A stretch of 64,000 nt of DNA from Candidatus Cloacimonadales bacterium. GTDB taxonomy: Bacteria > Cloacimonadota > Cloacimonadia > Cloacimonadales > JAFGVF01. The position numbers and the translations under genes are program-made. Shown in pieces: positions 2,886 through 20,100 of this stretch (positions are counted from its first letter, which is position 1; each line of letters opens with the position of its first letter). The stretch is from NCBI GenBank assembly GCA_963667035.1, contig OY762964.1, positions 768,001 through 832,000 of the forward strand. The letters run 5' to 3'. A model generated the notes under the pieces. That model did not search any database. It was not told the origin of the DNA and was given only the letters and a program-made list of their open reading frames with translations.

Positions 2886-3671
2886 TTGTCATTATATGAT
2901 TTTTATCAGGTAGACAGTTTTACAAATCAAGCCTTCAAGGGTAATCCTGCCGGAGTAGTAATATTGGATAAGGAATTGAGTGATTCAATACTACAGAGCA
3001 TTGCCAAGGAGATTAATCTTTCGGAAACAGCCTTCGTAGTTGACAATGGTAAGGAACTTAACATTAGGTGGTTTACTCCAGAAACCGAAGTTAAACTATG
3101 TGGACATGGAACATTAGCTGCATCTCAAGTATTGTTTAAAGAAAAAGCAATTTCAGAATGCAAATTCAAGAGTAAATCCGGTGATTTGTATGCCAGATAC
3201 CTAGATGGTGAAGTTTCTCTTGTATTTCCTGCTTCCTATCCACGTAGGGACTATCATAATGTTGCACTAAAAGATTTGTTACCCCAAGTCGAGGCAATGA
3301 AAATAGCTGATGATTTGAATTATGTCTTGACTGAGTTTACCGATAGAGTTGACTTAATAAAGTTCAAACCTGATTATAAAGCATTGAAAGATGTAGCTAA
3401 TCTTTCCGGTTTAATAATAACATGTAGAGATAATGAGTATGATTTCATTAGCCGTTTCTTTGATCCTTGGGAAGGTATACTTGAAGATCCGGTAACAGGA
3501 TCGGCTCATTGCGTGTTAACGCCTTATTGGAGTGAGAGATTAAACAAAAAAGAGTTAAGGGCATATCAAGCTTCTGAAAGAGGTGGGATTATTAAGTGTT
3601 ATGATGATGGGGATAAAGTAGTGCTAAAAGGTGAAGCAGTAATAGTAATTAAAGGGAAAATAGAGTTTTAA
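2886..3671 (+). CDS. PhzF family epimerase/isomerase
   Basis: QVDSFT...GNPAGV, NLSETAF, RWFTP.TEV.LCGHGTLA, EDPVTGSAHC. Confidence 0.93.
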   Translation: MSLYDFYQVDSFTNQAFKGNPAGVVILDKELSDSILQSIAKEINLSETAFVVDNGKELNIRWFTPETEVKLCGHGTLAASQVLFKEKAISECKFKSKSGDLYARYLDGEVSLVFPASYPRRDYHNVALKDLLPQVEAMKIADDLNYVLTEFTDRVDLIKFKPDYKALKDVANLSGLIITCRDNEYDFISRFFDPWEGILEDPVTGSAHCVLTPYWSERLNKKELRAYQASERGGIIKCYDDGDKVVLKGEAVIVIKGKIEF

Positions 3672-11428: not shown

Positions 11429-11887
11429 TTAGCTGCTATAGCTGTTTGTTAGATCGTCATATTTGTTGACTTTCGGTAAGAACCCATTGTCAATAGCATC
11501 CTTAACTGTTTGAATCCCGATATCCAAAAGCTGAATATCAGCAAAGGTAACAGTCTTCAGGTCAATAGTCGGATCATCTTTGTGGACATTCCACCACATC
11601 TTACTGTAAAGAGCATAGAAGGCAGGATGGCGTTTCTTCTTTCCGAGAACTTCATTTCCGTAGCGACGTGCATAAGTCTTGAGATTGTCAATCCAACCTG
11701 AATCGAAACTGTCATAAACAGTTGCCAGGTTTTCAGCGATACTTCCCATATTTGCGTTTTGAGGTGTGTCAGCAGGGACAACATAGTCTCTACTGAAGCA
11801 GATGTAACCTTCATTGAAGGCGGAGTAAACCAATTCATCCATCTTTCCTGAGAATGATCTGAATGGCTTCATCATGTTAACTCTCAT
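11429..11887 (-). CDS. Hypothetical protein, paralog of 18594..19049 (N-terminus reminiscent of DUF6266-type proteins)
   Basis: SFSGKMDELVY...RDYVVP..T.QN..MG....N...PTIDL.T.T......I.TV..AI..GFLP.V..YD shared with the paralog; SD aaggag. Confidence 0.85.
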   Translation of the reverse strand: MRVNMMKPFRSFSGKMDELVYSAFNEGYICFSRDYVVPADTPQNANMGSIAENLATVYDSFDSGWIDNLKTYARRYGNEVLGKKKRHPAFYALYSKMWWNVHKDDPTIDLKTVTFADIQLLDIGIQTVKDAIDNGFLPKVNKYDDLTNSYSS

Positions 11888-11992
11888 TGTGATCTCCTTT
11901 TCCTACGAAGCTTTACGCTAAGTAGGATTCGTCCTACCAACAGACGACTTTTGTTTTTTATTTCCCTAACGCGCTTTGGGTTTCTATATTAC

Positions 11993-12048
11993 CGGGCATG
12001 CGGACATCCCTGTCCGCATGAACTGGGAACGCAGACATCCTGTCTGCA
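11993..12048. repeat. Doublet of REP-like palindromes (gcggacatccctgtccgc family)
   Basis: atgcggacatccctgtccgcat followed by ctgggaacgcagacatcctgtctgca; related copies at 29947, 36905 and 37212. Confidence 0.75.
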
Positions 12049-12129
12049 GTAAATCCATAATTAGTAATTTCTAACTAGTAATCAACCGGATCCGCATGCA
12101 CCATAAAATCTCTATGGAAGGATGTTACT

Positions 12130-12184
12130 CATTCAACATTTGTAAATAAGCATTCAACATTCACAATTTAGCATTTAGCATTGA
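12130..12184. repeat. Short heptamer-like tandem repeats
   Basis: cattcaa/cattcaa/cattcac/aatttag/catttag/cattga. Confidence 0.55.
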
Positions 12185-12191
12185 TTTTTAC

Positions 12192-12221
12192 TCCCTCTAT
12201 TATACGTAGCTTACGGTTTTT
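12192..12221 (-). promoter_or_regulatory. Conserved upstream motif (probable promoter) of the paralog family, copy 1
   Basis: Minus strand aaaaaccgtaagctacgTATAATagaggga; 24 of the first 27 nt match 17514-17540. Confidence 0.6.
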
Positions 12222-12431
12222 GATTTTAAATGAAAAAAGCCAAAAATTTTTAGCAAAAGTAAGTATAAATAAATTGAGTAATAAAGAATCTGTAATATAA
12301 TCACATTTACCAATTTGTGCTTGACATAGTAACTTTTTATTGACACTAATAATCTGTGAAAGTTTTATAAAAACTATTACAGATTCTTTGATAATATGAT
12401 AGAATACACTTTCCAGTTATAAGGAGTGCAT

Positions 12432-14723
12432 ATGATTACAGCTTTTAAGTATATAAACAATATCGGTTTGTTTGCTAATATGAATCAAGCAGCAGGTCTG
12501 CAAATGAATAATCTAACACTTATCTATGCAGAAAATGGACGGGGTAAAACTACAGTATCCGCCATCTTCCGTTCACTTAAAACTGGAGATCCTCTTCATG
12601 TTACGGAAAGAAAGACTTTGGGTAGTACTAGTGACGCAAAAATTATCTTGGATACTGATAATGCTCAACCTCCTTATATTTTTGAGAATGGGAATTGGAA
12701 TAGAAATTTACCTGAGATTGTGATATATGATGATGATTTTGTTGAAAGAAATATTTATTCTGGATTATCAATTTCACCTTCAAACAAAAAAAATCTTCAT
12801 GAGTTAATTATTGGTGAAGAGGGTATAAACTTAAATGATCAGCTAAACAATTGTATTAACAATATTTCTGAGTTTAACAAAGAGTTAAGGGATTGTGAAT
12901 CTAGGGTACAATCAGAATACCGATATGGATTAACTTGGAAAGAATTTTGTGATCTTGAAAATGTTGAAGATATTGATTCCAAAATTGAAGAGAAAAAGAA
13001 AACTCTTGAGGCAATAAAAAATCAGAGTACTATTATAGAAAAGAATCCAATTGTAACAGTCAACCAGGTTTCCATAAATATTAGTTACTACTTAAATCTG
13101 TTAAAATCTGACATTGGAGATATCGACAAGGAAGCAATGAGGATGGTGCTTGATTACTTTTCTGATACAGCAAGAGAAAAGTGGGTATCAGATGGTTTAG
13201 AGCTATTACCTCATGATCAGGATGACAACCAGAAATGCCCATTTTGCCATCAACACTTGAAAGATTCAGAAATCTTTAAGCTATACAAACAATATTTTAG
13301 TGAGAGTTATAAAACTCTCAAGAGGAGCATTACTAAAGTAGCAAGTTCTCTTCAAAGAGATTTCGATGTTACTAAACAGTTTGAGTTATCATCTATTCTT
13401 AACGATGTAAACCATGATATTAATTATTGGTCAGACTATATAGGTATTGATAAAACCCCAATAGAATTAGATGATTATTTAGCAAATTGGAAAGTCGTCT
13501 ATGAGCTTCTCTTCTCGAAAATATCAGAGAAGTTAAAAGCCCCTCTTGAAGTTATTCAAATATCAGAAGTTGAACAGAAAAGTATTGATAGTTACAAAAA
13601 GAATAGTGCAAAGTTATTTGAAATTGATACCTATATAGCTGAAGTGAATAAGAAAATCTCTGATTTAAAAGAAAGCATTAAACTAAAAGACATTTCAATA
13701 GCTCAAAATGAACTAAACAAATTACTGGCTACAAAAGCTAGATTTAATGATGACATTGTTGCTCACTGTGATAGATATAAAAGTATACAAGATGAGAAAC
13801 AAAGAGTAAAGACTCAGAGAGATAGATTTAGAACTGATTTAGAAGAATATAGAACTAGAATCTTTCCAGAGTATCAGCATACTGTTAATGAATACTTAGG
13901 TCTGTTTAATGCCGGATATAGAATTGAAGATGTGAAACATAGAAATATTAGTTCTGGCTCATCCTGCAATTATAATGTGTTAATTAACAATATTCCGGTT
14001 CCTGTAACAATTCCTTCTTCTAATGGTGAACCATCTTTTCATAATACATTGAGTGCAGGTGATAGAAACTCGTTGGCTCTGGCATTTTTTTTTGCAAAGC
14101 TAAATAAAGATAATAATCGTTCTTCAAAAATAGTAATAATCGATGATCCAGTTTCTACACTTGATGATCACAGAACCATGTCTACAATCCAAGAAATAAG
14201 GAGAATATCTAATAATGTCAATCAAGTTATTGTACTATCTCATAACAAAAAATTCTTATGTGAGCTGTTTCAAACAACTAGAAGTTTAGACCCTACACCT
14301 TTGGTAATAAAGAAAGAAAGAAACAATTCAGTTATTGGATCTTGGAATGTTAATGATGATACTGTTACTTTACACGATTTATATCATGGACTATTAACAG
14401 AATACAATGAGGGTCATCAAGACAAATCAAAGGAAGTAGCTGAAGCCATTCGACCATATTTAGAGGGTTTTCTAAGAGTTATCTTCCCTACACATTTTGT
14501 TTCAGGGACCATGATTGGTCCATTTATTAATAAATGTAGGACTTTAGTTGGTACTGCAAATGAATTGTTAAGTGTAAGTAGAGTTGATGAATTGGACAAC
14601 ATTAAAGGATATGCAAATAAATTTCACCATGATACTAATAGTAATCATCTTCATGAAATAGTGAATAACTCTGAATTAGAGGGTTATGTTCGAAGAACTC
14701 TTGATTTTGTAAAGCTTCAATAA
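12432..14723 (+). CDS. AAA_13/RloC-like ABC-ATPase with zinc hook and C-terminal HEPN-like domain
   Basis: Walker A AENGRGKT, CPFC zinc hook within coiled coil, signature LSAGDR, Walker B IIDDPVSTLD, SHN, C-terminal NKFHH. Confidence 0.8.
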   Translation: MITAFKYINNIGLFANMNQAAGLQMNNLTLIYAENGRGKTTVSAIFRSLKTGDPLHVTERKTLGSTSDAKIILDTDNAQPPYIFENGNWNRNLPEIVIYDDDFVERNIYSGLSISPSNKKNLHELIIGEEGINLNDQLNNCINNISEFNKELRDCESRVQSEYRYGLTWKEFCDLENVEDIDSKIEEKKKTLEAIKNQSTIIEKNPIVTVNQVSINISYYLNLLKSDIGDIDKEAMRMVLDYFSDTAREKWVSDGLELLPHDQDDNQKCPFCHQHLKDSEIFKLYKQYFSESYKTLKRSITKVASSLQRDFDVTKQFELSSILNDVNHDINYWSDYIGIDKTPIELDDYLANWKVVYELLFSKISEKLKAPLEVIQISEVEQKSIDSYKKNSAKLFEIDTYIAEVNKKISDLKESIKLKDISIAQNELNKLLATKARFNDDIVAHCDRYKSIQDEKQRVKTQRDRFRTDLEEYRTRIFPEYQHTVNEYLGLFNAGYRIEDVKHRNISSGSSCNYNVLINNIPVPVTIPSSNGEPSFHNTLSAGDRNSLALAFFFAKLNKDNNRSSKIVIIDDPVSTLDDHRTMSTIQEIRRISNNVNQVIVLSHNKKFLCELFQTTRSLDPTPLVIKKERNNSVIGSWNVNDDTVTLHDLYHGLLTEYNEGHQDKSKEVAEAIRPYLEGFLRVIFPTHFVSGTMIGPFINKCRTLVGTANELLSVSRVDELDNIKGYANKFHHDTNSNHLHEIVNNSELEGYVRRTLDFVKLQ

Positions 14724-14747
14724 CATTGAAAAGAGTAAAGAGGAAAT

Positions 14748-17213
14748 ATGCCAGAAATATGGAAAGACTCATTAAATCGGAATAAATTGTTTAAGCGATT
14801 GAAAGAATTGGAAAAAGAATCGGAATTGGAAACAGATGTTAGGGCACTAATTGCTGATTTAGAAAAGATTGTTAAATATGCATATGATAAATCAAAAAGA
14901 ATTCCAATTAATATGCCAGAATACACACTGCATGACGAAATCCATATTTTCAATGTTATGAAAATAATGGATAAATTGATACCTAAAGAAACAAGAGAAG
15001 CACTTTCAGCACCTGAGTTAATGCTTCTTTTAGCATGTGCTGCATTACATGATATTGGGATGGCTGTTAGTCAAAAACAAGTAGTTTGTTGGAAGGGTAT
15101 ATACGAAAAAGAGAACCCAACTTCTCGTGAACTCAAAGATAAGAAAAGATTTGATGATTTCATTGATGGATATCCAGAGAAAAAACAAGAATGGGAAGAT
15201 TTAAAGAGAAGCAACGATCCCGAAGCCTCTTTTATTGAACAATTCTTAATCTCTGAATTTATCAGGGAAAATCACCCACATCAAATGCAAGTTGAGTTTA
15301 AGGCATTCTTCAAAGACTGGATTATAAAATATAAAAACATGGAACTAAACAGGTTCATTAATAGTTTATGCAGAAGTCATGGAGAGAACCTTAACGCCTT
15401 AGACAAGTTTAGTTCATTAGAAGTGTGTGGTGATGAAGTTGTTTGTTTGCAATATATTGGTGTCATTTTGAGACTATCTGATATTTTGGATTTTGACTAT
15501 ACTAGAGCACCTGATGCCATTTATAAATCAATTGCTTTTAACAGTAGTGTCTCAATAAAAGAGTGGATTAAGCATCGATCTATAACTTCATTGTCTATTG
15601 GAGAGAAGAACATTTACTTTAGTGCTACATGTTCTCATCCTAAGATAGAAAAATCTATTCGAGATTTTCTCAATGTAATTGATGACGAGTTAACATCATG
15701 TAACACCTATATAGAAAATATGAATGATCCTAAATTCGAAGATAGAATGAAGGTCTATAAGCATGGTTTTACTGATAAAGTAGATGGGAATAGAATTGGA
15801 CCGGAATTAGATTCAAACAATGAACCTAAATACATATATAAAGATATCAGCTTCTCACTGAGTAAAGTCCAAATTATTGATTTACTGATGGGCACAAAAC
15901 TTTATAATGATAAATCTGTTCCCCTAAGAGAACTTGTGCAGAACTCTATTGATGCATGTTTGTTGCAAATGTCTATTTGCAAGCACTTCAAGCAGGACTA
16001 TACACCTAGGATAAAAATTGAGTATTATAAAGATGAATCTAACTACATATTAGTTGTTGAAGATAACGGTATCGGGATGGATCTTGACATTATTAATAAT
16101 TACTACTCAAACATTGGAAAGTCATACTATAAATCCAAGGAATTCCTAAGAGTAAAAGCACTAACACATTCACAAATGTGCCCGATTTCAAGATTTGGTA
16201 TTGGTGTGTTATCCTGTTTTATGGTCTCAGATTCTATCGAAGTTGAAACCTTAAAGCATAATGATGATGGGTCTTATGGAAAAGGATTAAGTATTAGCAT
16301 TGATGGGAAAGATAGCATTTTTGAGATTAGAAATTGTGATAAAGTTAATTCAGGTACTGTTACAAAATTAAAACTTAGACCTCAGGATAATTTCTGGGAA
16401 GAGACTTCTAAAGAGGATTTTGAGAAGATGGTTAAGAAGGCATTTCCTAATCCTCCTATCAGAATTGATGTTGAAGCAAGAGATTTAAAAGAAATTAATG
16501 ATGATGTCATCGTGGATGACAGTACTAACGAAACCTCAAGCAGTATCACGATTAATGAAAATGATTTTGATTTCACAAGAATTAATGATCTTCAAGATAG
16601 TTCATGGAGTGAACAGGAAGTAGTCCAATTGCATAAGATATCTCTGGATAATTCTGAATTTAGTTTGAAGGGAGTAGCATTAATAGCACTATTGGAGAAA
16701 GATGCACTACCTGTAAAGGAATATACCTTTGAACCAGTAACAAAAACAATAGATGGTGAGGATTATACATTGGAATATAAAATTAGTACTGGCACCTACT
16801 GGTATAAAGCGAGTTATAACAATATAACAATAGATAATCAAGGGGGATTAAAATCAGACACGGGTTTCGATTTTATATTTAGATCAGATAACTACTTATC
16901 GATTCATGGAATAGAAGTTCCACATAAATTATTTGGTTATAGCAATAATCAGAGAAGCAAAGTCAAATTAGAATGGCCATTTTCAATGATTATAGCTTTA
17001 GATATAGGTAACAAAATGGATTTAGATTTAAATTCACAAAGAACTGAGATTATTAAAACAGACAAGTGGGATAAATTCGAACAAGTGCTTGCAACAATAG
17101 TTTGCACACAGCTAAAAGAGCAAGTAACTCAAGGATATTGGAATGAAATGAAAACATTGTTTAGTAATTCACGATCAAGCATTTTTAACTCTGCTTTAAA
17201 ATCAATCGATTAA
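14748..17213 (+). CDS. HD-domain (HD-CE-like) + HSP90/GHKL ATPase fusion protein
   Basis: YTLHD..H, LHDIGM, IR..H, CRSHG, RLSDILD, then LRELVQNSIDA, DNGIGM, ISRFGIG.LSCFM. Confidence 0.85.
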   Translation: MPEIWKDSLNRNKLFKRLKELEKESELETDVRALIADLEKIVKYAYDKSKRIPINMPEYTLHDEIHIFNVMKIMDKLIPKETREALSAPELMLLLACAALHDIGMAVSQKQVVCWKGIYEKENPTSRELKDKKRFDDFIDGYPEKKQEWEDLKRSNDPEASFIEQFLISEFIRENHPHQMQVEFKAFFKDWIIKYKNMELNRFINSLCRSHGENLNALDKFSSLEVCGDEVVCLQYIGVILRLSDILDFDYTRAPDAIYKSIAFNSSVSIKEWIKHRSITSLSIGEKNIYFSATCSHPKIEKSIRDFLNVIDDELTSCNTYIENMNDPKFEDRMKVYKHGFTDKVDGNRIGPELDSNNEPKYIYKDISFSLSKVQIIDLLMGTKLYNDKSVPLRELVQNSIDACLLQMSICKHFKQDYTPRIKIEYYKDESNYILVVEDNGIGMDLDIINNYYSNIGKSYYKSKEFLRVKALTHSQMCPISRFGIGVLSCFMVSDSIEVETLKHNDDGSYGKGLSISIDGKDSIFEIRNCDKVNSGTVTKLKLRPQDNFWEETSKEDFEKMVKKAFPNPPIRIDVEARDLKEINDDVIVDDSTNETSSSITINENDFDFTRINDLQDSSWSEQEVVQLHKISLDNSEFSLKGVALIALLEKDALPVKEYTFEPVTKTIDGEDYTLEYKISTGTYWYKASYNNITIDNQGGLKSDTGFDFIFRSDNYLSIHGIEVPHKLFGYSNNQRSKVKLEWPFSMIIALDIGNKMDLDLNSQRTEIIKTDKWDKFEQVLATIVCTQLKEQVTQGYWNEMKTLFSNSRSSIFNSALKSID

Positions 17214-17513
17214 TTGGTATATGTAAAAAGTTATACCTAAGATATTATAGTCCTGATTTTAGAAACACATTTTGTGTTTCACCCCACACTCACTCCACCA
17301 TCATAATTCCCAACAAACAGCTCTCCAATTTCTGTGAGTCTCTTGAGGGTCTCCGGGGCTCGAGGATAAGAGAGTATCAAATTATTGGGTGGATGGAGAT
17401 ATTTTTTTCATGTTTATTATGATAGGGCGTAGAAACCTCATATAATCATTGATTATATATTGTTATCATATTATGATTATTGATAAAATTATGCTGTTTT
17501 ACACCGATTTGTG

Positions 17514-17543
17514 AAAAAGCGTAAGCTACGAAGAATAGAGAGG
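17514..17543 (+). promoter_or_regulatory. Conserved upstream motif (probable promoter) of the paralog family, copy 2
   Basis: aaaaagcgtaagctacgaagaatagagagg; inverted relative to 12192-12221 and pointing to 18594. Confidence 0.6.
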
Positions 17544-17550
17544 TATTTTA

Positions 17551-19331
17551 TAATCCTAAAAAGATTACATAATAATAGCCATGGGTTTTAACCTATGGAA
17601 TATAGGTACCCACATCCCCCGATCCTAAAGGGTTGTCGAAATCATATTATGTAAAATATAAAAATGCACGGTTTGTATTTAACATTTTTTATTGGGCGAC
17701 CCCGTTAGGGTCGAGGATTTAATTAATCAGTTTCCATGGGCTGAAGCCCATGGCTATTATATGGTTGTCCCTTTAGGACAAAGATGGAGTTTGATTGATC
17801 TGTTTTCATTGATTAAGTACATTGTAATTCGTTAAAAAACCTTTATGAATAACAGTTTAAATAATATGTAATCCAATTATCGAACCCTTATAGGGTTCTC
17901 TTACAATAGCCATAGGTTTTAACCTATGGAATATAGGCACCAACCTCCCCCGATCCTAAAGGGTTGCCGAAATCATATTATGTAAAATATAAAAATGCAC
18001 GGTTTGTATTTAACATTTTTTATTGGGCGACCCCGTTAGGGTCGAGGATTTAATTAATCAGTTTCCATGGGCTGAAGCCCATGGCTATTATAATGTTGCC
18101 CTGTTAGGGCAAGATTGATGTTTCAATGATCCGTTTCCATGGGTTGAAACCTGTGGCTATTATATGGTTGTCCATTTAGGACAAAAACGGTGTTTGATTG
18201 ATTCATTTACACGGGTTAAAACCCATGGCTATTATACGGTTGTCCCTTCATGACAATAATCTAAATATTATGTAATCCATATTAAGAACCCTAACGGGGT
18301 TCTCTTACAATAGCCATAGGTTTTAACCTATGGAACAGGAATACCCCCTAAAAACCACACAACCCTAACAGGGTTGCCTTATATTCATAACCCTGAAGAG
18401 TCTTTAAATTCAATCCCATGTCTATTATACGGTTGTCCCTTTAGGACAATAATTGAAATATTAAGTAATCCATATTACGAACCCTAGCGGGGTTCTCTTA
18501 CAATAGCCATAGGTTTTAACCTATGGAACAGGAATACCCCCAAAACCACGACCCTAAAAGGGTCGTCCTCCACATCAATAAAGGAGAAAGACAATGAAAG
18601 TTAAACTCGCAGCTTGGATTAAATCGATGTCCGGTAGATTGGACGATTTAGTGTTTTGTGTTGATAAGAAAACAGGAAATGTTTGGGTGCGTGATTATGT
18701 TGTACCCGAACGAACAGAGCAGAATACACGAATGGGATTGTCAGCAAAGAATATGGCAGTTTTTAGGCAGAACATCAATGAAGAGTATTATTCCGATTTA
18801 GAGGATTATTCGGATAGATACAATCTTCAATCATTGGGGCAATCCGGTCGTTTGAATGGATATTCAGTATTGAATAAAATGTTGTATGCCCTAAAAAGAG
18901 CATATCCCACGATAGATCTGACAACGATTACCCCGCAATTTGTCGTGGATCATAATTTACCGATTCGCACAGTTGCAGAGGCGATAGAACATGGATTTCT
19001 CCCACCGGTACCTCGTTATGATGAGTTTGTAAATCCAATTATGTTGTGATTTGGCGACCCCGTTAGGGTCGAGGTTTTATTTGGTCCGTTTCCATGGGTT
19101 AAAACCCATGGTTATTATACGGTTGTCCCTCTAGGACAGAAACGATGTTTGCTTGAACTGATTCCATGGGCTGACGCCCATGGCTATTATATGGGTGTCC
19201 TTTCAGGACAATAATAGAAACATTATGTAATCCATATTACGAACCCTAGCGGGGTTCTCTAACAATAGCCATAGGTTTTAACCTATGGAATAGGAATCCC
19301 CCCCCCAAACCACACAACCCTAACGGGGTTG
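17551..19331. repeat. Array of about 12 full or partial triple-hairpin REP/REPIN-like units in both orientations
   Basis: Forward units (gaaccct..ggggttc / aatagccataggttttaacctatggaa / caaccct..agggttg) at ~17551, 17881, 18286, 18478, 19240; inverted units (cgaccccgttagggtcg / ttccatggg..cccatggctatt / ttgtccctttaggacaa) at ~17695, 18026, 18131, 18207, 18414, 19053, 19162. Confidence 0.92.
18594..19049 (+). CDS. Hypothetical protein, paralog of 11429..11887
   Basis: SMSGRLDDLVF...RDYVVPERTEQN...PTIDLTTIT...IRTVAEAIEHGFLPPVPRYD; SD aaggag. Confidence 0.85.
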   Translation: MKVKLAAWIKSMSGRLDDLVFCVDKKTGNVWVRDYVVPERTEQNTRMGLSAKNMAVFRQNINEEYYSDLEDYSDRYNLQSLGQSGRLNGYSVLNKMLYALKRAYPTIDLTTITPQFVVDHNLPIRTVAEAIEHGFLPPVPRYDEFVNPIML

Positions 19332-19405: not shown

Positions 19406-19984
19406 TTATCTCGAATCTTTAATGAACAAATCAATATCATCATCCATTTCAGGTTTATAAGCTAAACATGCTTTCAACTTTATCGTCTTCTTGATATGCA
19501 TTGCTAAGATTGGGCAAAACTTTTCCAATTTCTGAATCGCACGCTTTATAGAAGTATAAACCTGATGGTATGTTTGCATAACGAGCTTATCGATGTTAGG
19601 CTCCTGATGTGACCATTTTCTCAGAAAAGCTTCAGTGTTAGCAATTTGGTCCATCTCAATATCATTGAATCTGGATGTGTCATTAATGATTTGTCTTTTA
19701 TAAGCTCTTAACTTTGAGAGAAGTTCTGCATTTTGAATCTGTTCTTCTCTTGCAAGATCATAGCATCTTGTTATATAGTCAGCTTTTGTATCTTTCGATA
19801 CCGAGTTCTTGTTGTTACGGATGTTTGAGTATTCTAAGATAAAGAATAAGCGTTGAATCTGAATTGTTTGATTAGGATGTAGTAAAAGCTCTTCCAGATA
19901 CTTGAATCCGGTTATTTTCGTTATTGGTTTATTCTGTTCGGGTGTTAACCATGATTCAGGTGTTATCACTAATTTGTACAACAT
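19406..19984 (-). CDS. Hypothetical protein resembling the C-terminal domain of large ATPase-type regulators
   Basis: GFKYLEELLLHPNQTI...AYKRQI...VYTSIKRAIQKL...P.LA.HI...I....CLAYKP; SD ggagg before ATG 19984. Confidence 0.65.
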   Translation of the reverse strand: MLYKLVITPESWLTPEQNKPITKITGFKYLEELLLHPNQTIQIQRLFFILEYSNIRNNKNSVSKDTKADYITRCYDLAREEQIQNAELLSKLRAYKRQIINDTSRFNDIEMDQIANTEAFLRKWSHQEPNIDKLVMQTYHQVYTSIKRAIQKLEKFCPILAMHIKKTIKLKACLAYKPEMDDDIDLFIKDSR

Positions 19985-20100
19985 AATATCCTCCAAAACA
20001 TATAAATTGTTGTAATGACAACAAAGTTAACAATTTAGAGAGGATAAATCAGAAGATTGTAAACGGGAAGATACAATAGAATGCGTATTGATTTTTGATT

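What the first reader, a model, noticed from the sequence alone, without database searches (positions are those of the whole stretch)
11429..19331. Divergent paralog pair with a shared promoter-like motif and repeat-filled leaders bracketing two defence-type genes
Seen: two ~150-aa genes (11429-11887 minus, 18594-19049 plus) share SG..D.LV, RDYVVP..T.QN, PTIDL.T.T and AI..GFLP.V..YD. Each is preceded by the same motif (aaaaa.cgtaagctacg.a.aatagag, 24/27 identical; 12192-12221 and 17514-17543) containing a cgta-agc-tacg mini-palindrome. Both leaders (~300 bp and ~1050 bp) are packed with palindromic or tandem repeats from different families. The two motifs form outward-facing inverted repeats enclosing only an RloC-like ATPase and an HD/HSP90 gene. 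Inference: an uncharacterised module of conserved promoter, structured leader and small protein that marks or builds a variable defence locus; alternatively the motifs are ends of an invertible or mobile segment.
Basis: partly seen in the sequence, partly recalled or inferred. Interest (0 to 1): 0.8.

Follow-up and report, generated by a model that had tools for sequence, protein, structure and literature searches.

The report
Paralog pair framing swappable defence genes
Two related small genes of unknown function sit back to back around a slot that holds different anti-phage genes in different strains of an uncultured Cloacimonadota bacterium, an arrangement that recurs across this phylum and may be a new kind of docking frame for defence genes.

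Summary
The two ~150-aa genes are paralogs (35% identity, E 4e-30). The 27-nt motif occurs 4 times in the 3.1-Mb genome and 4 times in a sister genome. All 8 copies lie upstream of a family gene and read towards it.

The wider pattern is new. The family is specific to Cloacimonadota (79 of 121 genomes, 1-24 copies). It has no Pfam, NCBIfam or PHROG match. Its fold is predicted with confidence (pLDDT 93) and matches no solved structure. A tree splits it deeply into clades A and B.

- All 22 pairs examined are one A plus one B: 16 divergent brackets around 2-14 kb of cargo and 6 adjacent B-then-A tandems.
- Of 18 spaced neighbour pairs in nine genomes, 17 are divergent and 0 convergent.
- 8 of 16 cargoes carry defence or conflict genes.
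- Both brackets shared with the sister genome hold different cargo. This one holds PDC-S06 + HD-CE here and a methylase + Lamassu-like set there.
- The motif is this pair's version of a pair-matched 5' control box, seen in 13 of 16 brackets.

The repeat-filled leaders are not part of the module. They are REP-like hairpins linked to IS200-type transposases, and one subtype matches Rfam Acido-Lenti-1. No inversion and no outer terminal repeats were seen. What the A and B proteins do remains unknown.

The parts
11429..11887 (-). A-type member of the family (152 aa)
   Evidence: ORF with AGGAG ribosome-binding site. Falls in the A clade, support 98/99. 91% aa identity to its G025 orthologue. No Pfam hit.
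11888..12194 (-). Leader of the A gene: about 100 nt conserved next to the gene, then two REP-like hairpins (GCrGACAGG(G)ATGTCyGC, near 11998-12050) and heptad-like AATGCTA repeats (12148-12182)
   Evidence: Sequence. The hairpin type has 32 stem-forming loop-pattern sites genome-wide. Only the gene-proximal ~100 nt and the box align with G025.
12195..12221 (-).
   Evidence: Conserved in G025 at L040 3182-3206.
12321..12352 (+). TTGACA-type promoter-like elements facing the cargo (TTGACA at 12321-12326 and 12340-12345); the second is conserved in G025 although the gene behind it differs
   Evidence: Sequence, alignment. TTGACA is the -35 element enriched in this genome, 391 against 70 on the opposite strand.
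12426..14723 (+). Cargo gene 1: AAA_13 / RloC-like ABC-type ATPase, PADLOC candidate system PDC-S06
   Evidence: Pfam AAA_13 E 4e-41. PADLOC PDC-S06 E 5e-67, PrrC E 5e-10. No nucleotide match in the syntenic G025 locus.
14748..17213 (+). Cargo gene 2: HD-CE plus GHKL (HATPase_c_3) protein
   Evidence: Pfam HD-CE E 1e-48, HATPase_c_3 E 4e-9. No nucleotide match in the syntenic G025 locus.
17283..17513 (+). Conserved non-coding frame upstream of the B box (80% identical to G025; partly shared with the upstream region of paralog 1194110)
17514..17540 (+). Control box of the B gene
   Evidence: Conserved in G025 at L040 8689-8713.
17545..18590 (+). Leader of the B gene: array of REP-like hairpin units in composite repeats (270-nt x2, 250-nt x2, 137-nt x4); two units resemble Rfam Acido-Lenti-1 (17734-17780, 18065-18111)
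   Evidence: Copies at seven other genome regions, by 5-kb bins.
18594..19049 (+). B-type member of the family (151 aa)
   Evidence: AlphaFold2 pLDDT 92.9.
19050..19331 (+). 3' REP-like array; 19164-19210 matches Acido-Lenti-1 above its gathering score
   Evidence: 41 bits against a cut-off of 37. Repeat D3.

Best explanation
The two genes are the A and B members of a two-paralog module specific to Cloacimonadota. Some lineages add a third, 58-aa gene 'C'. A and B belong together. They occur either as an adjacent B-then-A operon or, as here, back to back and transcribed outwards, with 2-14 kb of accessory DNA between their 5' ends.

The space inside such a bracket is a hotspot for foreign genes. 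Much of the cargo is anti-phage defence (restriction-modification, Lamassu, PDC candidates, STAND NTPases). Some is mobile-element replication genes or IS elements.

The 27-nt motif is the 5' control box of the two genes in this particular pair. Each pair has its own matched box. The box has a variable operator-like half (a palindrome or two ~9-nt direct repeats about 21 nt apart) followed by a conserved TATA(n)TAGAGG-like end.

The frame stays while the cargo is replaced. The frame consists of the A gene, its box, a cargo-facing TTGACA promoter, about 230 nt of conserved sequence, the B box and the B gene.

The hairpin and tandem repeats in the leaders are secondary invaders: REP-like elements spread by IS200/RAYT-type Y1 transposases.

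Shown: family, A/B split, pairing rule, orientation bias, cargo turnover, matched boxes, nature of the repeats.

Inferred:
- A and B act as a hetero-oligomer, co-expressed from the matched boxes.
- Cargo is swapped by homologous recombination through the conserved frame.
- The proteins act on the frame or its cargo, by regulation, insulation or recombination. I put this active role at about 0.35.
For: Family:
- 11 full-length copies plus 1 fragment in this genome.
- 352 cluster representatives in 1.84 billion proteins, nearly all ~150 aa.
- Found in 79 of 121 Cloacimonadota genomes.
- The B model has pLDDT 92.9. The A model has the same order of secondary-structure elements at pLDDT 70.8.

A/B split and pairing:
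- In a tree of 51 members the A clade (22) and the B clade (29) separate with 98/99 support.
- Each of 16 divergent pairs and 6 tandem pairs has one member in each clade.
- The tandem order is always B then A.

Orientation:
- Among 131 near-full-length members in nine genomes, neighbours within 16 kb are 17 divergent, 0 convergent, 1 same-strand spaced and 6 adjacent same-strand.

Cargo turnover:
- Window against G025 L040: the A gene is 88.8% identical and both boxes are kept. Nothing matches between window 11991 and 17283 except the box.
- The cargo here is PDC-S06 + HD-CE. There it is MTase_II + LmuB-like plus two further genes.
- The second shared bracket holds PDC-M04A/B + NA37 here (L007) and C5 methylase + GHKL there (L064).
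- The G012 brackets L069 and L070 have nearly identical A proteins (branch lengths 0.006 and 0.02) but different cargo and different boxes.

Defence content:
- PADLOC hits at E <= 1e-5 in 7 of 16 brackets (window, L007, L040, L064, L065, L071, L081).
- STAND/TRADD-N-type Pfam hits in an eighth, L069.

Boxes:
- The motif lies upstream of a family gene and reads towards it at 8 of 8 sites in G000 and G025.
- Left and right upstream regions share a pair-specific stretch scoring above 20 shuffles in 15 of 16 brackets.
- In 13 of these it is a box-like stretch. The other two are L063 (only AATGCT repeats) and L071 (only a hairpin next to the start).

Repeats:
- They are dispersed.
- Two type-A hairpins flank a Y1_Tnp gene at genome 2952221-2952475.
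- In G025 an intact Y1_Tnp (E 3e-23) sits inside the same repeat array next to the B gene.
Against: - No function is assigned to A, B or C. A-B binding could not be tested because complex prediction never accepted the job.
- B-type genes also stand alone: 7 of 11 in this genome. Their neighbours are mostly housekeeping genes or IS elements. The family therefore does not depend on cargo.
- 8 of 16 cargoes have no recognised defence gene. Some are surface proteins, primases or IS elements.
- Divergent brackets were found in six of the nine genomes tabulated. G019, G003 and G038 had none.
- The box has no TTGACA -35 element, which this genome's ordinary promoters have. No RNA data exist, so 'promoter' is not shown.
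- In tandem operons the box's AGGAGG lies 7-8 nt before a start codon and may be a ribosome-binding site rather than part of a promoter.
- Recombination through the frame is inferred from two genome comparisons only.
- A first came from a C-terminal motif I chose. One search labelled only the tandem pairs by position, and I read the rest off its tree.
Confidence: 0.6

Rival explanations
1. Passive hotspot. A and B have a cellular role that has nothing to do with the cargo. The region between two outward-reading genes is simply a place where insertions do no harm, so foreign DNA piles up there.
For: - Solitary B genes and cargo-free B-A tandem operons exist.
- The cargo is heterogeneous: IS elements, surface proteins, primases.
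- No recombinase and no outer terminal repeats were found.
Against: - 17 of 18 spaced neighbour pairs are divergent and none is empty; the smallest gap is 2.2 kb.
- The rule 'one A plus one B' holds in 22 of 22 pairs.
- In G000 and G025 all 7 A-type genes are in brackets.
- A near-identical A/B pair was duplicated and holds other cargo (L069 and L070).
- The frame carries a conserved cargo-facing TTGACA element.
Confidence: 0.25
2. Promoter, structured repeat-rich leader and small protein form one functional module, and the leader repeats are a working part of it, for example a long regulatory RNA.
For: - All Acido-Lenti-1-like units lie on the gene's strand.
- Type-A hairpins lie within 150 nt upstream of 3 of 11 paralogs, on the same strand; a fourth paralog has a variant loop seen by eye.
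Against: - The leaders of orthologous genes in G025 carry other repeats at the same place; only the box and the ~100 nt next to the gene align.
- The same units occur away from family genes and beside Y1 transposase genes or remnants.
- Leader length ranges from 63 to 1082 nt.
- The repeats also lie 3' of the gene.
Confidence: 0.1
3. The two boxes are the ends of an invertible or mobile segment. The cargo flips or moves by recombination at the inverted 27-nt repeats.
For: - The boxes are inverted repeats that enclose the cargo, here and in 13 of 16 brackets.
- In two of three comparisons the boxes change together with the cargo: L007 against L064, and L069 against L070.
Against: - The same box precedes two solitary B genes that have no partner box.
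- Between G000 and G025 the box is kept while the cargo differs, and the junctions lie about 130 and 235 nt inside the boxes.
- No recombinase domain was found in the 7 window ORFs scanned.
- One contig spans 10500-17666 in the reference orientation in each of three runs of one sample; contigs drop rare variants, so this is weak.
Confidence: 0.08

Closest known systems
Defence-island hotspots framed by conserved genes (P2/P4 prophage hotspots of E. coli, core defence hotspots of Pseudomonas aeruginosa; recalled, not read here)
   Same: A fixed frame whose interior holds different defence systems in related genomes. The cargo is mixed with mobile-element genes.
   Different: Here the two framing genes are paralogs of each other and always come as one A and one B. 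They read outwards, carry matched boxes, and the whole frame occurs many times per genome (2-5 brackets in the genomes analysed). No integrase or prophage backbone was seen.
Integron platform (intI, Pc, attI and cassettes; recalled)
   Same: A conserved gene transcribed away from a variable array, with a conserved promoter facing the cargo.
   Different: No tyrosine recombinase. attC-like sites were not looked for. The cargo consists of whole operons with their own orientation. A second framing gene closes the far side.
REP elements with RAYT / IS200-type Y1 transposases
   Same: Short GC-rich hairpins with covarying stems, dispersed in intergenic DNA, clustered around Y1_Tnp genes.
   Different: This applies to the leader repeats only, not to the A/B genes, which have no Y1_Tnp match. 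Whether the Y1 genes are RAYTs or plain IS200 transposases was not tested.
Rfam RF01687 Acido-Lenti-1 RNA motif (Weinberg et al. [quoted passage not shown]
   Same: Two hairpins and a GGCUAuuaUAUG linker. One unit scores 41 bits against a cut-off of 37.
   Different: Here it is one unit type inside composite REP-like arrays in a Cloacimonadota genome. Two other units score 36.7 and 30.9, below the cut-off.
Regulators encoded beside many unrelated defence systems (WYL/BrxR- or CapW-type; recalled)
   Same: A small gene next to, and often divergent from, varied defence operons, with an operator-like site between them.
   Different: No sequence or fold similarity was found. Two paralogs instead of one regulator. 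DNA binding is untested.

Membership tests
   No hit for either window protein at E <= 0.1, nor among 60 family members at E <= 0.01. Profile-profile comparison was not possible.
Any described protein family or solved fold | Significant match by sequence or structure | tested here: inconclusive
   Pfam, NCBIfam and PHROGs gave only sub-threshold hits. PDB sequence profiles: best E 0.19. Foldseek PDB and BFVD: 0 hits at E <= 0.001. VIA-align against 48,161 chains: best Z 4.0, over two helices of ribbon-helix-helix proteins.
Rfam Acido-Lenti-1 (RF01687) | Score at or above the gathering threshold (37 bits) with both hairpins | tested here: met
   19164-19210: 41 bits, full model 1-46. 17734-17780 (36.7) and 18065-18111 (30.9) fall below it.
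REP / Y1-transposase system | Short palindromic units dispersed in intergenic DNA | tested here: met
   Leader-B units match seven other genome regions by 5-kb bins. Type-A hairpin: 32 stem-forming sites genome-wide.
REP / Y1-transposase system | Units flank a Y1 (HUH) transposase gene | tested here: met
   Hairpins at genome 2952122 and 2952813 flank Y1_Tnp 2952221-2952475. G025 Y1_Tnp at L040 10627-11070 (E 3e-23) lies inside the array. A Y1_Tnp remnant at 66918-67085 lies beside a unit at 66768-66822.
REP / Y1-transposase system | The transposase is of the RAYT subtype rather than IS200 TnpA | not tested
   Only the Pfam Y1_Tnp model was used.
Sigma-70-type promoter | -35 TTGACA-like hexamer 16-18 nt upstream of a -10 TAnnnT | tested here: not met
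   The consensus scan does not call either box. The boxes have TATAAT/AAGAAT-like hexamers but no TTGACA, whereas TTGACA is the enriched upstream element genome-wide.
Site-specific invertible segment (Hin/Gin, shufflon, invertible promoters) | Inverted repeats at both ends | tested here: met
   27-nt inverted repeat, 89% complementary.
Site-specific invertible segment (Hin/Gin, shufflon, invertible promoters) | Recombinase gene in or beside the segment | tested here: not met
   No recombinase domain in the 7 window ORFs scanned between 10.8 and 21.0 kb.
Site-specific invertible segment (Hin/Gin, shufflon, invertible promoters) | Both orientations present in a population | tested here: inconclusive
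   Only contigs of one sample were available. They show the reference orientation.
Transposon with terminal inverted repeats that includes the A and B genes | Inverted repeats outside the two genes | tested here: not met
   Outer 600-nt flanks of 16 brackets: 7 scores are above the best of 20 shuffles and 9 are not. Where I looked, the higher ones are REP or simple repeats at unequal distances from the stops; there is no consistent terminal repeat.
Integron | IntI-type tyrosine recombinase beside the array | tested here: not met
   None among the Pfam hits of the window ORFs or of the cargo and flank ORFs of 15 further brackets. The only integrase-type hit is an IS rve transposase in L068.
CsrA-binding leader or sponge RNA (considered for the ACAGG(G)AUGU hairpin loops; consensus recalled) | A CsrA protein in the genome | tested here: not met
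   PF02599 has 0 matches in the 98%-complete genome. The control search found it in E. coli, B. subtilis and T. maritima.

The most novel reading that the evidence does not exclude
A and B form a hetero-oligomer that recognises its own pair-matched boxes and runs a so far undescribed cassette frame without an integrase. The frame captures, expresses (through its cargo-facing promoter) and exchanges whole defence operons, and it copies itself within the genome. That would make it a Cloacimonadota counterpart of an integron or defence hotspot, built from a new protein fold.
Probability: 0.2. Interest if true: 0.9.

Novelty: new variant of a known kind. Interest (0 to 1): 0.72.

Why it matters
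Defence islands are known to turn over at fixed hotspots, but what defines a hotspot is mostly unclear. Here the frame is a recognisable, repeated genetic unit: two paralogs of a new fold with matched control boxes and a strict pairing and orientation rule. It holds restriction-modification, Lamassu, PDC candidates and many unknown genes in an uncultured phylum common in anaerobic digesters.

If the proteins act on the frame, this is a new way to capture or control defence genes. Even if they do not, the frame is a practical marker for finding new defence systems in Cloacimonadota, because half of the cargoes have no known family.

The work also gives a genomic context (REP-like arrays next to IS200-type transposases) for the Acido-Lenti-1 RNA motif, whose function is unknown.

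Tried and rejected
- **CsrA-binding leader.** The hairpin loops resemble the CsrA site (recalled), but the genome has no CsrA.
- **General promoter consensus.** TATAnTAGArG occurs 32 times in the genome, mostly in what looks by eye like coding sequence. Ordinary upstream regions use TTGACA instead.
- **Inversion between the boxes.** Only contigs from one sample were available. One contig spans 10500-17666 in the reference orientation, and the two listed joints have 22-letter sides. No RNA holder is listed.
- **A-B binding.** Complex prediction was never accepted: the queue was full or the job was not sent on, and one search gave no usable answer. There is therefore no result.
- **Fused or longer forms.** None found among 285-2000-aa proteins, which is weak evidence.
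- **Phage origin.** No relative in IMG/VR by pattern scan and none in 50,697 GenBank phage records by tblastn. PHROGs gave only weak hits.
- **Metagenome contigs for strain-level cargo comparison.** The first scan found none and the second found three short contigs.
- **Indel boundaries of the brackets that G025 has and G000 lacks.** Synteny between the two genomes is too broken.
- **Outer terminal repeats.** No consistent one found.
- **Earlier notes of this scan.** Nothing relevant.
- **Literature.** Searches for 'Cloacimonadota' + 'defense systems' and for defence-island, hotspot and paralogous flank terms turned up no description of this frame. This rests on listings only.
Full report
**What is in the window.** The window is G000:C1:768001-832000 of a single-contig 3.10-Mb genome with 35.6% G+C. 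The closest titled relative of the second gene (75% identity) is a 'Candidatus Cloacimonadales' MAG. The nearest protein-atlas clusters are Cloacimonadota.

The ORFs 11429-11887(-) and 18594-19049(+) are 35% identical (E 4e-30). The 27-nt motif is present twice against 0 expected. The two copies form an inverted repeat whose flanks do not align. They enclose an AAA_13/PDC-S06 ATPase gene and an HD-CE + HATPase_c_3 gene. Both leaders, and also the 3' flank of the second gene, are full of hairpin and composite repeats.

**The family.** The genome has 11 full-length copies and one fragment. All have strong AGGAG/GGAGG ribosome-binding sites. A profile of the 11 finds 352 cluster representatives among 1.84 billion proteins, and the 150 listed are almost all about 150 aa.

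There is no credible Pfam, NCBIfam or PHROG hit. Neither PDB sequence profile search gave a hit.

AlphaFold2 with 60 sequences gives pLDDT 92.9: three strands followed by five helices. An A-type model from 12 sequences has the same order of elements at pLDDT 70.8. Foldseek against PDB and BFVD gives nothing at E <= 0.001. VIA-align over 48,161 chains gives a best Z of 4.0 on a two-helix stretch. By the tool's own notes that is not evidence of a shared fold.

In a sample of 121 Cloacimonadota genomes, 79 have the family, with 1 to 24 matches each. Many hits in fragmented MAGs lie at contig ends.

**The motif.** The core CGTAAGCTACG occurs four times in the genome. Each copy is upstream of a family gene, at 63, 141, 336 and 1082 nt, and reads towards it. 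The next-best position-weight score genome-wide is 20 against 46-49 for the four sites.

The same-genus genome G025 also has four sites: three exact and one with a single mismatch. Set against the gene positions, they lie 94, 301, 335 and 706 nt upstream of family genes and read towards them. In the other 119 genomes the pattern (up to 1 mismatch) hits 14 genomes once each. The reversed control pattern gives 13 hits in 12 genomes, so those 14 hits are background.

The motif is therefore real, tied to the family and genus-specific. It is carried by only 4 of 11 copies here and 4 of 22 in G025.

**Pairs.** I listed all hits in further genomes and tabulated 131 near-full-length members in nine genomes. 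I left out fragments, the five partial hits of G085 and the 24 weak hits of G037, a distant subfamily. By eye G037 has one convergent pair 14.4 kb apart and no divergent pair.

Neighbours within 16 kb are as follows:
- 17 divergent pairs, with gaps of 2.2-14.8 kb
- 0 convergent pairs
- 1 same-strand spaced pair (G019, 13 kb)
- 6 adjacent same-strand pairs, with gaps of 34-397 nt

I fetched 16 of the divergent pairs and the 6 tandem pairs. The 17th divergent pair, in G018, was not analysed.

A maximum-likelihood tree of 51 members splits into an A clade (22 members) and a B clade (29 members) with 98/99 support. Every one of the 22 pairs has one member in each clade. In tandems B comes first and A second. 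All 7 solitary copies of this genome are B.

I first picked out A by a C-terminal motif. In one search only the tandem pairs were labelled, by position, and I read the divergent pairs off that tree.

In the window the left gene is A and the right gene is B. In G000 and G025 all 7 A genes are in brackets.

In family-f3 genomes a third gene of 58-59 aa lies next to A or B. tblastn finds it in 19 fetched loci and not in G000, where the best E-value is 0.25. It has no Pfam match.

**Cargo.** The syntenic locus of G025 (L040) keeps the A gene (88.8% nt identity), both boxes, about 230 nt upstream of the B box (80%), the B gene (75%) and the next gene. Between the frames it has a type II methylase, two unknown genes and an LmuB-like ATPase instead of PDC-S06 + HD-CE.

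The alignments put the junctions about 130 nt inside the A box, just after a conserved TATTGACAC that faces the cargo, and about 235 nt inside the B box.

The second bracket of this genome (L007, genome 2266224/2271634) holds PDC-M04A/B, an unknown gene and an NA37-like gene. Its G025 counterpart (L064) holds a C5 methylase, a GHKL protein and a receiver-like protein.

The other brackets hold:
- Lamassu LmuA/C/B, E 1e-115 to 6e-147 (L065)
- type I R-M plus PDC-S13 (L071)
- type II R-M (L081)
- a STAND NTPase with a TRADD-N-associated membrane protein (L069)
- PIN plus unknown genes (L063)
- a D5-type primase (L083)
- PrimPol/DUF3987 plus surface proteins (L084)
- an IS element (L068)
- a T9SS protein plus unknown genes (L066)
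- DUF4325, a transglycosylase and a KTSC protein (L070)
- unknown genes only (L067, L082)

That makes 8 of 16 brackets with recognised defence or conflict genes.

By contrast, the neighbours of the solitary B copies in this genome are mostly housekeeping genes and IS elements.

L069 and L070 of G012 have almost identical A proteins and similar B proteins but different cargo, different boxes and opposite orientation. This points to duplication of the frame followed by replacement of its interior.

**Boxes.** For each bracket I aligned the region upstream of the left gene with that upstream of the right gene, each read in its gene's sense. In 15 of 16 brackets the best local match exceeds the best of 20 shuffles. 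The exception is L082.

In 13 brackets the match is a discrete box. In 11 of those 13 the box ends in a TATA(n)TAGAGG-like sequence:
- window and L040: CGTAAGCTACG-TATAATAGAG
- L007: TATTCCT x2 then TATATATAAGTATAGAGG
- L064, L066, L067
- L068: TTTTATACCT x2
- L069: ATGGAGCATA x2
- L070: TTATGCCTA x2
- L084

L065 and L083 share longer stretches of 110-160 nt, and L081 shares a repeat-rich stretch. L063 shares only AATGCT-type repeats, and L071 shares only a hairpin next to the start.

Several boxes contain two ~9-nt direct repeats about 21 nt apart. The window's version contains a palindrome instead. The tandem operons have the same kind of box directly before the first start codon, with AGGAGG 7-8 nt from the ATG.

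Ordinary upstream regions of this genome are marked by TTGACA (391 occurrences against 70 on the other strand) with a weak -10. The boxes lack TTGACA, and the sigma-70 scan does not call them. Whether a box is a special promoter, an operator or the start of a 5' UTR is therefore open. No RNA data were found.

The outer flanks of the brackets share no consistent inverted repeats.

**Repeats in the leaders.** The units of the long B leader and 3' tail match seven other genome regions, by 5-kb bins. One of these lies beside a Y1_Tnp remnant at 66918-67085.

One two-hairpin unit matches Rfam Acido-Lenti-1 at 41 bits, above its cut-off of 37. Two more score 36.7 and 30.9. All genomic hits with E < 0.01 lie at this locus and on the gene's strand.

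In G025 the same array surrounds an intact IS200-like gene (Y1_Tnp, E 3e-23) just downstream of the B gene.

The hairpin of the A leader (GCrGACAGG(G)ATGTCyGC) has 32 stem-forming sites genome-wide. Two of them flank a Y1_Tnp gene at 2952221-2952475. Others lie within 150 nt upstream of three family genes, on their strand. A fourth family gene has a variant, seen by eye.

Orthologous leaders in G025 carry different repeats at the same place. These are therefore REP-like invaders of tolerant, probably transcribed DNA. They are not a conserved structured leader.

Their GGA-containing loops recall CsrA sites, but the genome has no CsrA.

**Reading.** The evidence supports a recurrent A/B frame whose interior is a hotspot for accessory genes, largely defence genes. 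It does not show what A and B do. The strict heterotypic pairing, the B-A operons and the matched boxes make joint action of the two proteins likely, but this is inferred. I could not test binding.

I judge an active role on the frame or the cargo at about 0.35 and a purely passive frame at about 0.25. The inversion or mobile-segment idea has little support. The structured-leader idea is contradicted by the comparison of orthologous loci.

**Comparison with known systems.** The closest concept is a defence hotspot framed by conserved genes. An integron platform is a looser analogy: a divergent gene plus a cargo-facing promoter, but here with no integrase. Both comparisons are recalled, not read.

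The two literature searches I ran (listings only) and the notes of this scan show no description of this frame.

Noticed in passing
window 17734-17780, 18065-18111, 19164-19210; L040 8767-8813, 8981-9026, 11113-11159: Units matching the Rfam motif Acido-Lenti-1, whose function is unknown, are parts of composite REP-like arrays. In the sister genome they lie directly beside an intact IS200-type Y1 transposase gene (L040 10627-11070). The motif may be a REP-type mobile hairpin rather than a stand-alone sRNA.
   Followed up: partly
window 11998-12050; genome 2952122 and 2952813: Hairpins GCrGACAGG(G)ATGTCyGC have loops that fit the recalled CsrA SELEX site ACArGGAUGU, yet the genome has no CsrA gene. 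Two copies flank a Y1_Tnp gene.
   Followed up: partly
window 12148-12182; L040 about 2960-3150; L069, L077, L079, L080, L081 upstream regions: Just downstream or upstream of the boxes there are imperfect tandem repeats of 7-8 nt. Their sequence differs from locus to locus (AATGCTA, TAATTAG, GTTAGAC, TTAATGG, GATTAGGT, GAGGTCGA). The period is kept but the sequence is not. No explanation.
   Followed up: no
L077 1048-1224, L079 1235-1408, L078 2072-2245, L083 7104-7268: A third conserved small gene of 58-59 aa (MN.(E/D)FI.TLAKELATRINKLVNIPLVKEEDEQAFFEM...) lies next to A or B genes in family-f3 Cloacimonadota (19 fetched loci). It was not found in this genome and has no Pfam match.
   Followed up: partly
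window 11432-11887 against L040 2398-2856: The A gene is much less diverged at third codon positions between the two genomes (0.82 identical) than the B gene (0.58) or the next gene (0.54). This hints at recent exchange or gene conversion of the A side.
   Followed up: partly
genome 150088-150244 (outside the window): A 157-nt stretch is 95% identical to the leader and first codons of an A gene of G025 (L065 6737-6892). It lies 4.5 kb from the solitary B gene at 154724, so this looks like a bracket that lost its A gene.
   Followed up: no
genome 2328336 (+), outside the window: A box of a second type (accagagttataTATAGTAGAAG, followed by AATGCTAAAT repeats) lies about 490 nt upstream of paralog 2327429 but points away from it, towards an EF-G-like gene. 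The paralog itself has a 4-residue deletion.
   Followed up: no
whole genome: Upstream regions are strongly enriched for the -35 hexamer TTGACA (391 against 70 on the other strand) and for AAGGAG, with only a weak -10 signal. So this Cloacimonadota genome appears to use canonical -35 elements and Shine-Dalgarno sites.
   Followed up: partly
window 19406-19996 (-): A 196-aa ORF with no family match lies just beyond the B gene's repeat array. It is conserved in G025 (71% aa identity, L040 11553-12128).
   Followed up: no
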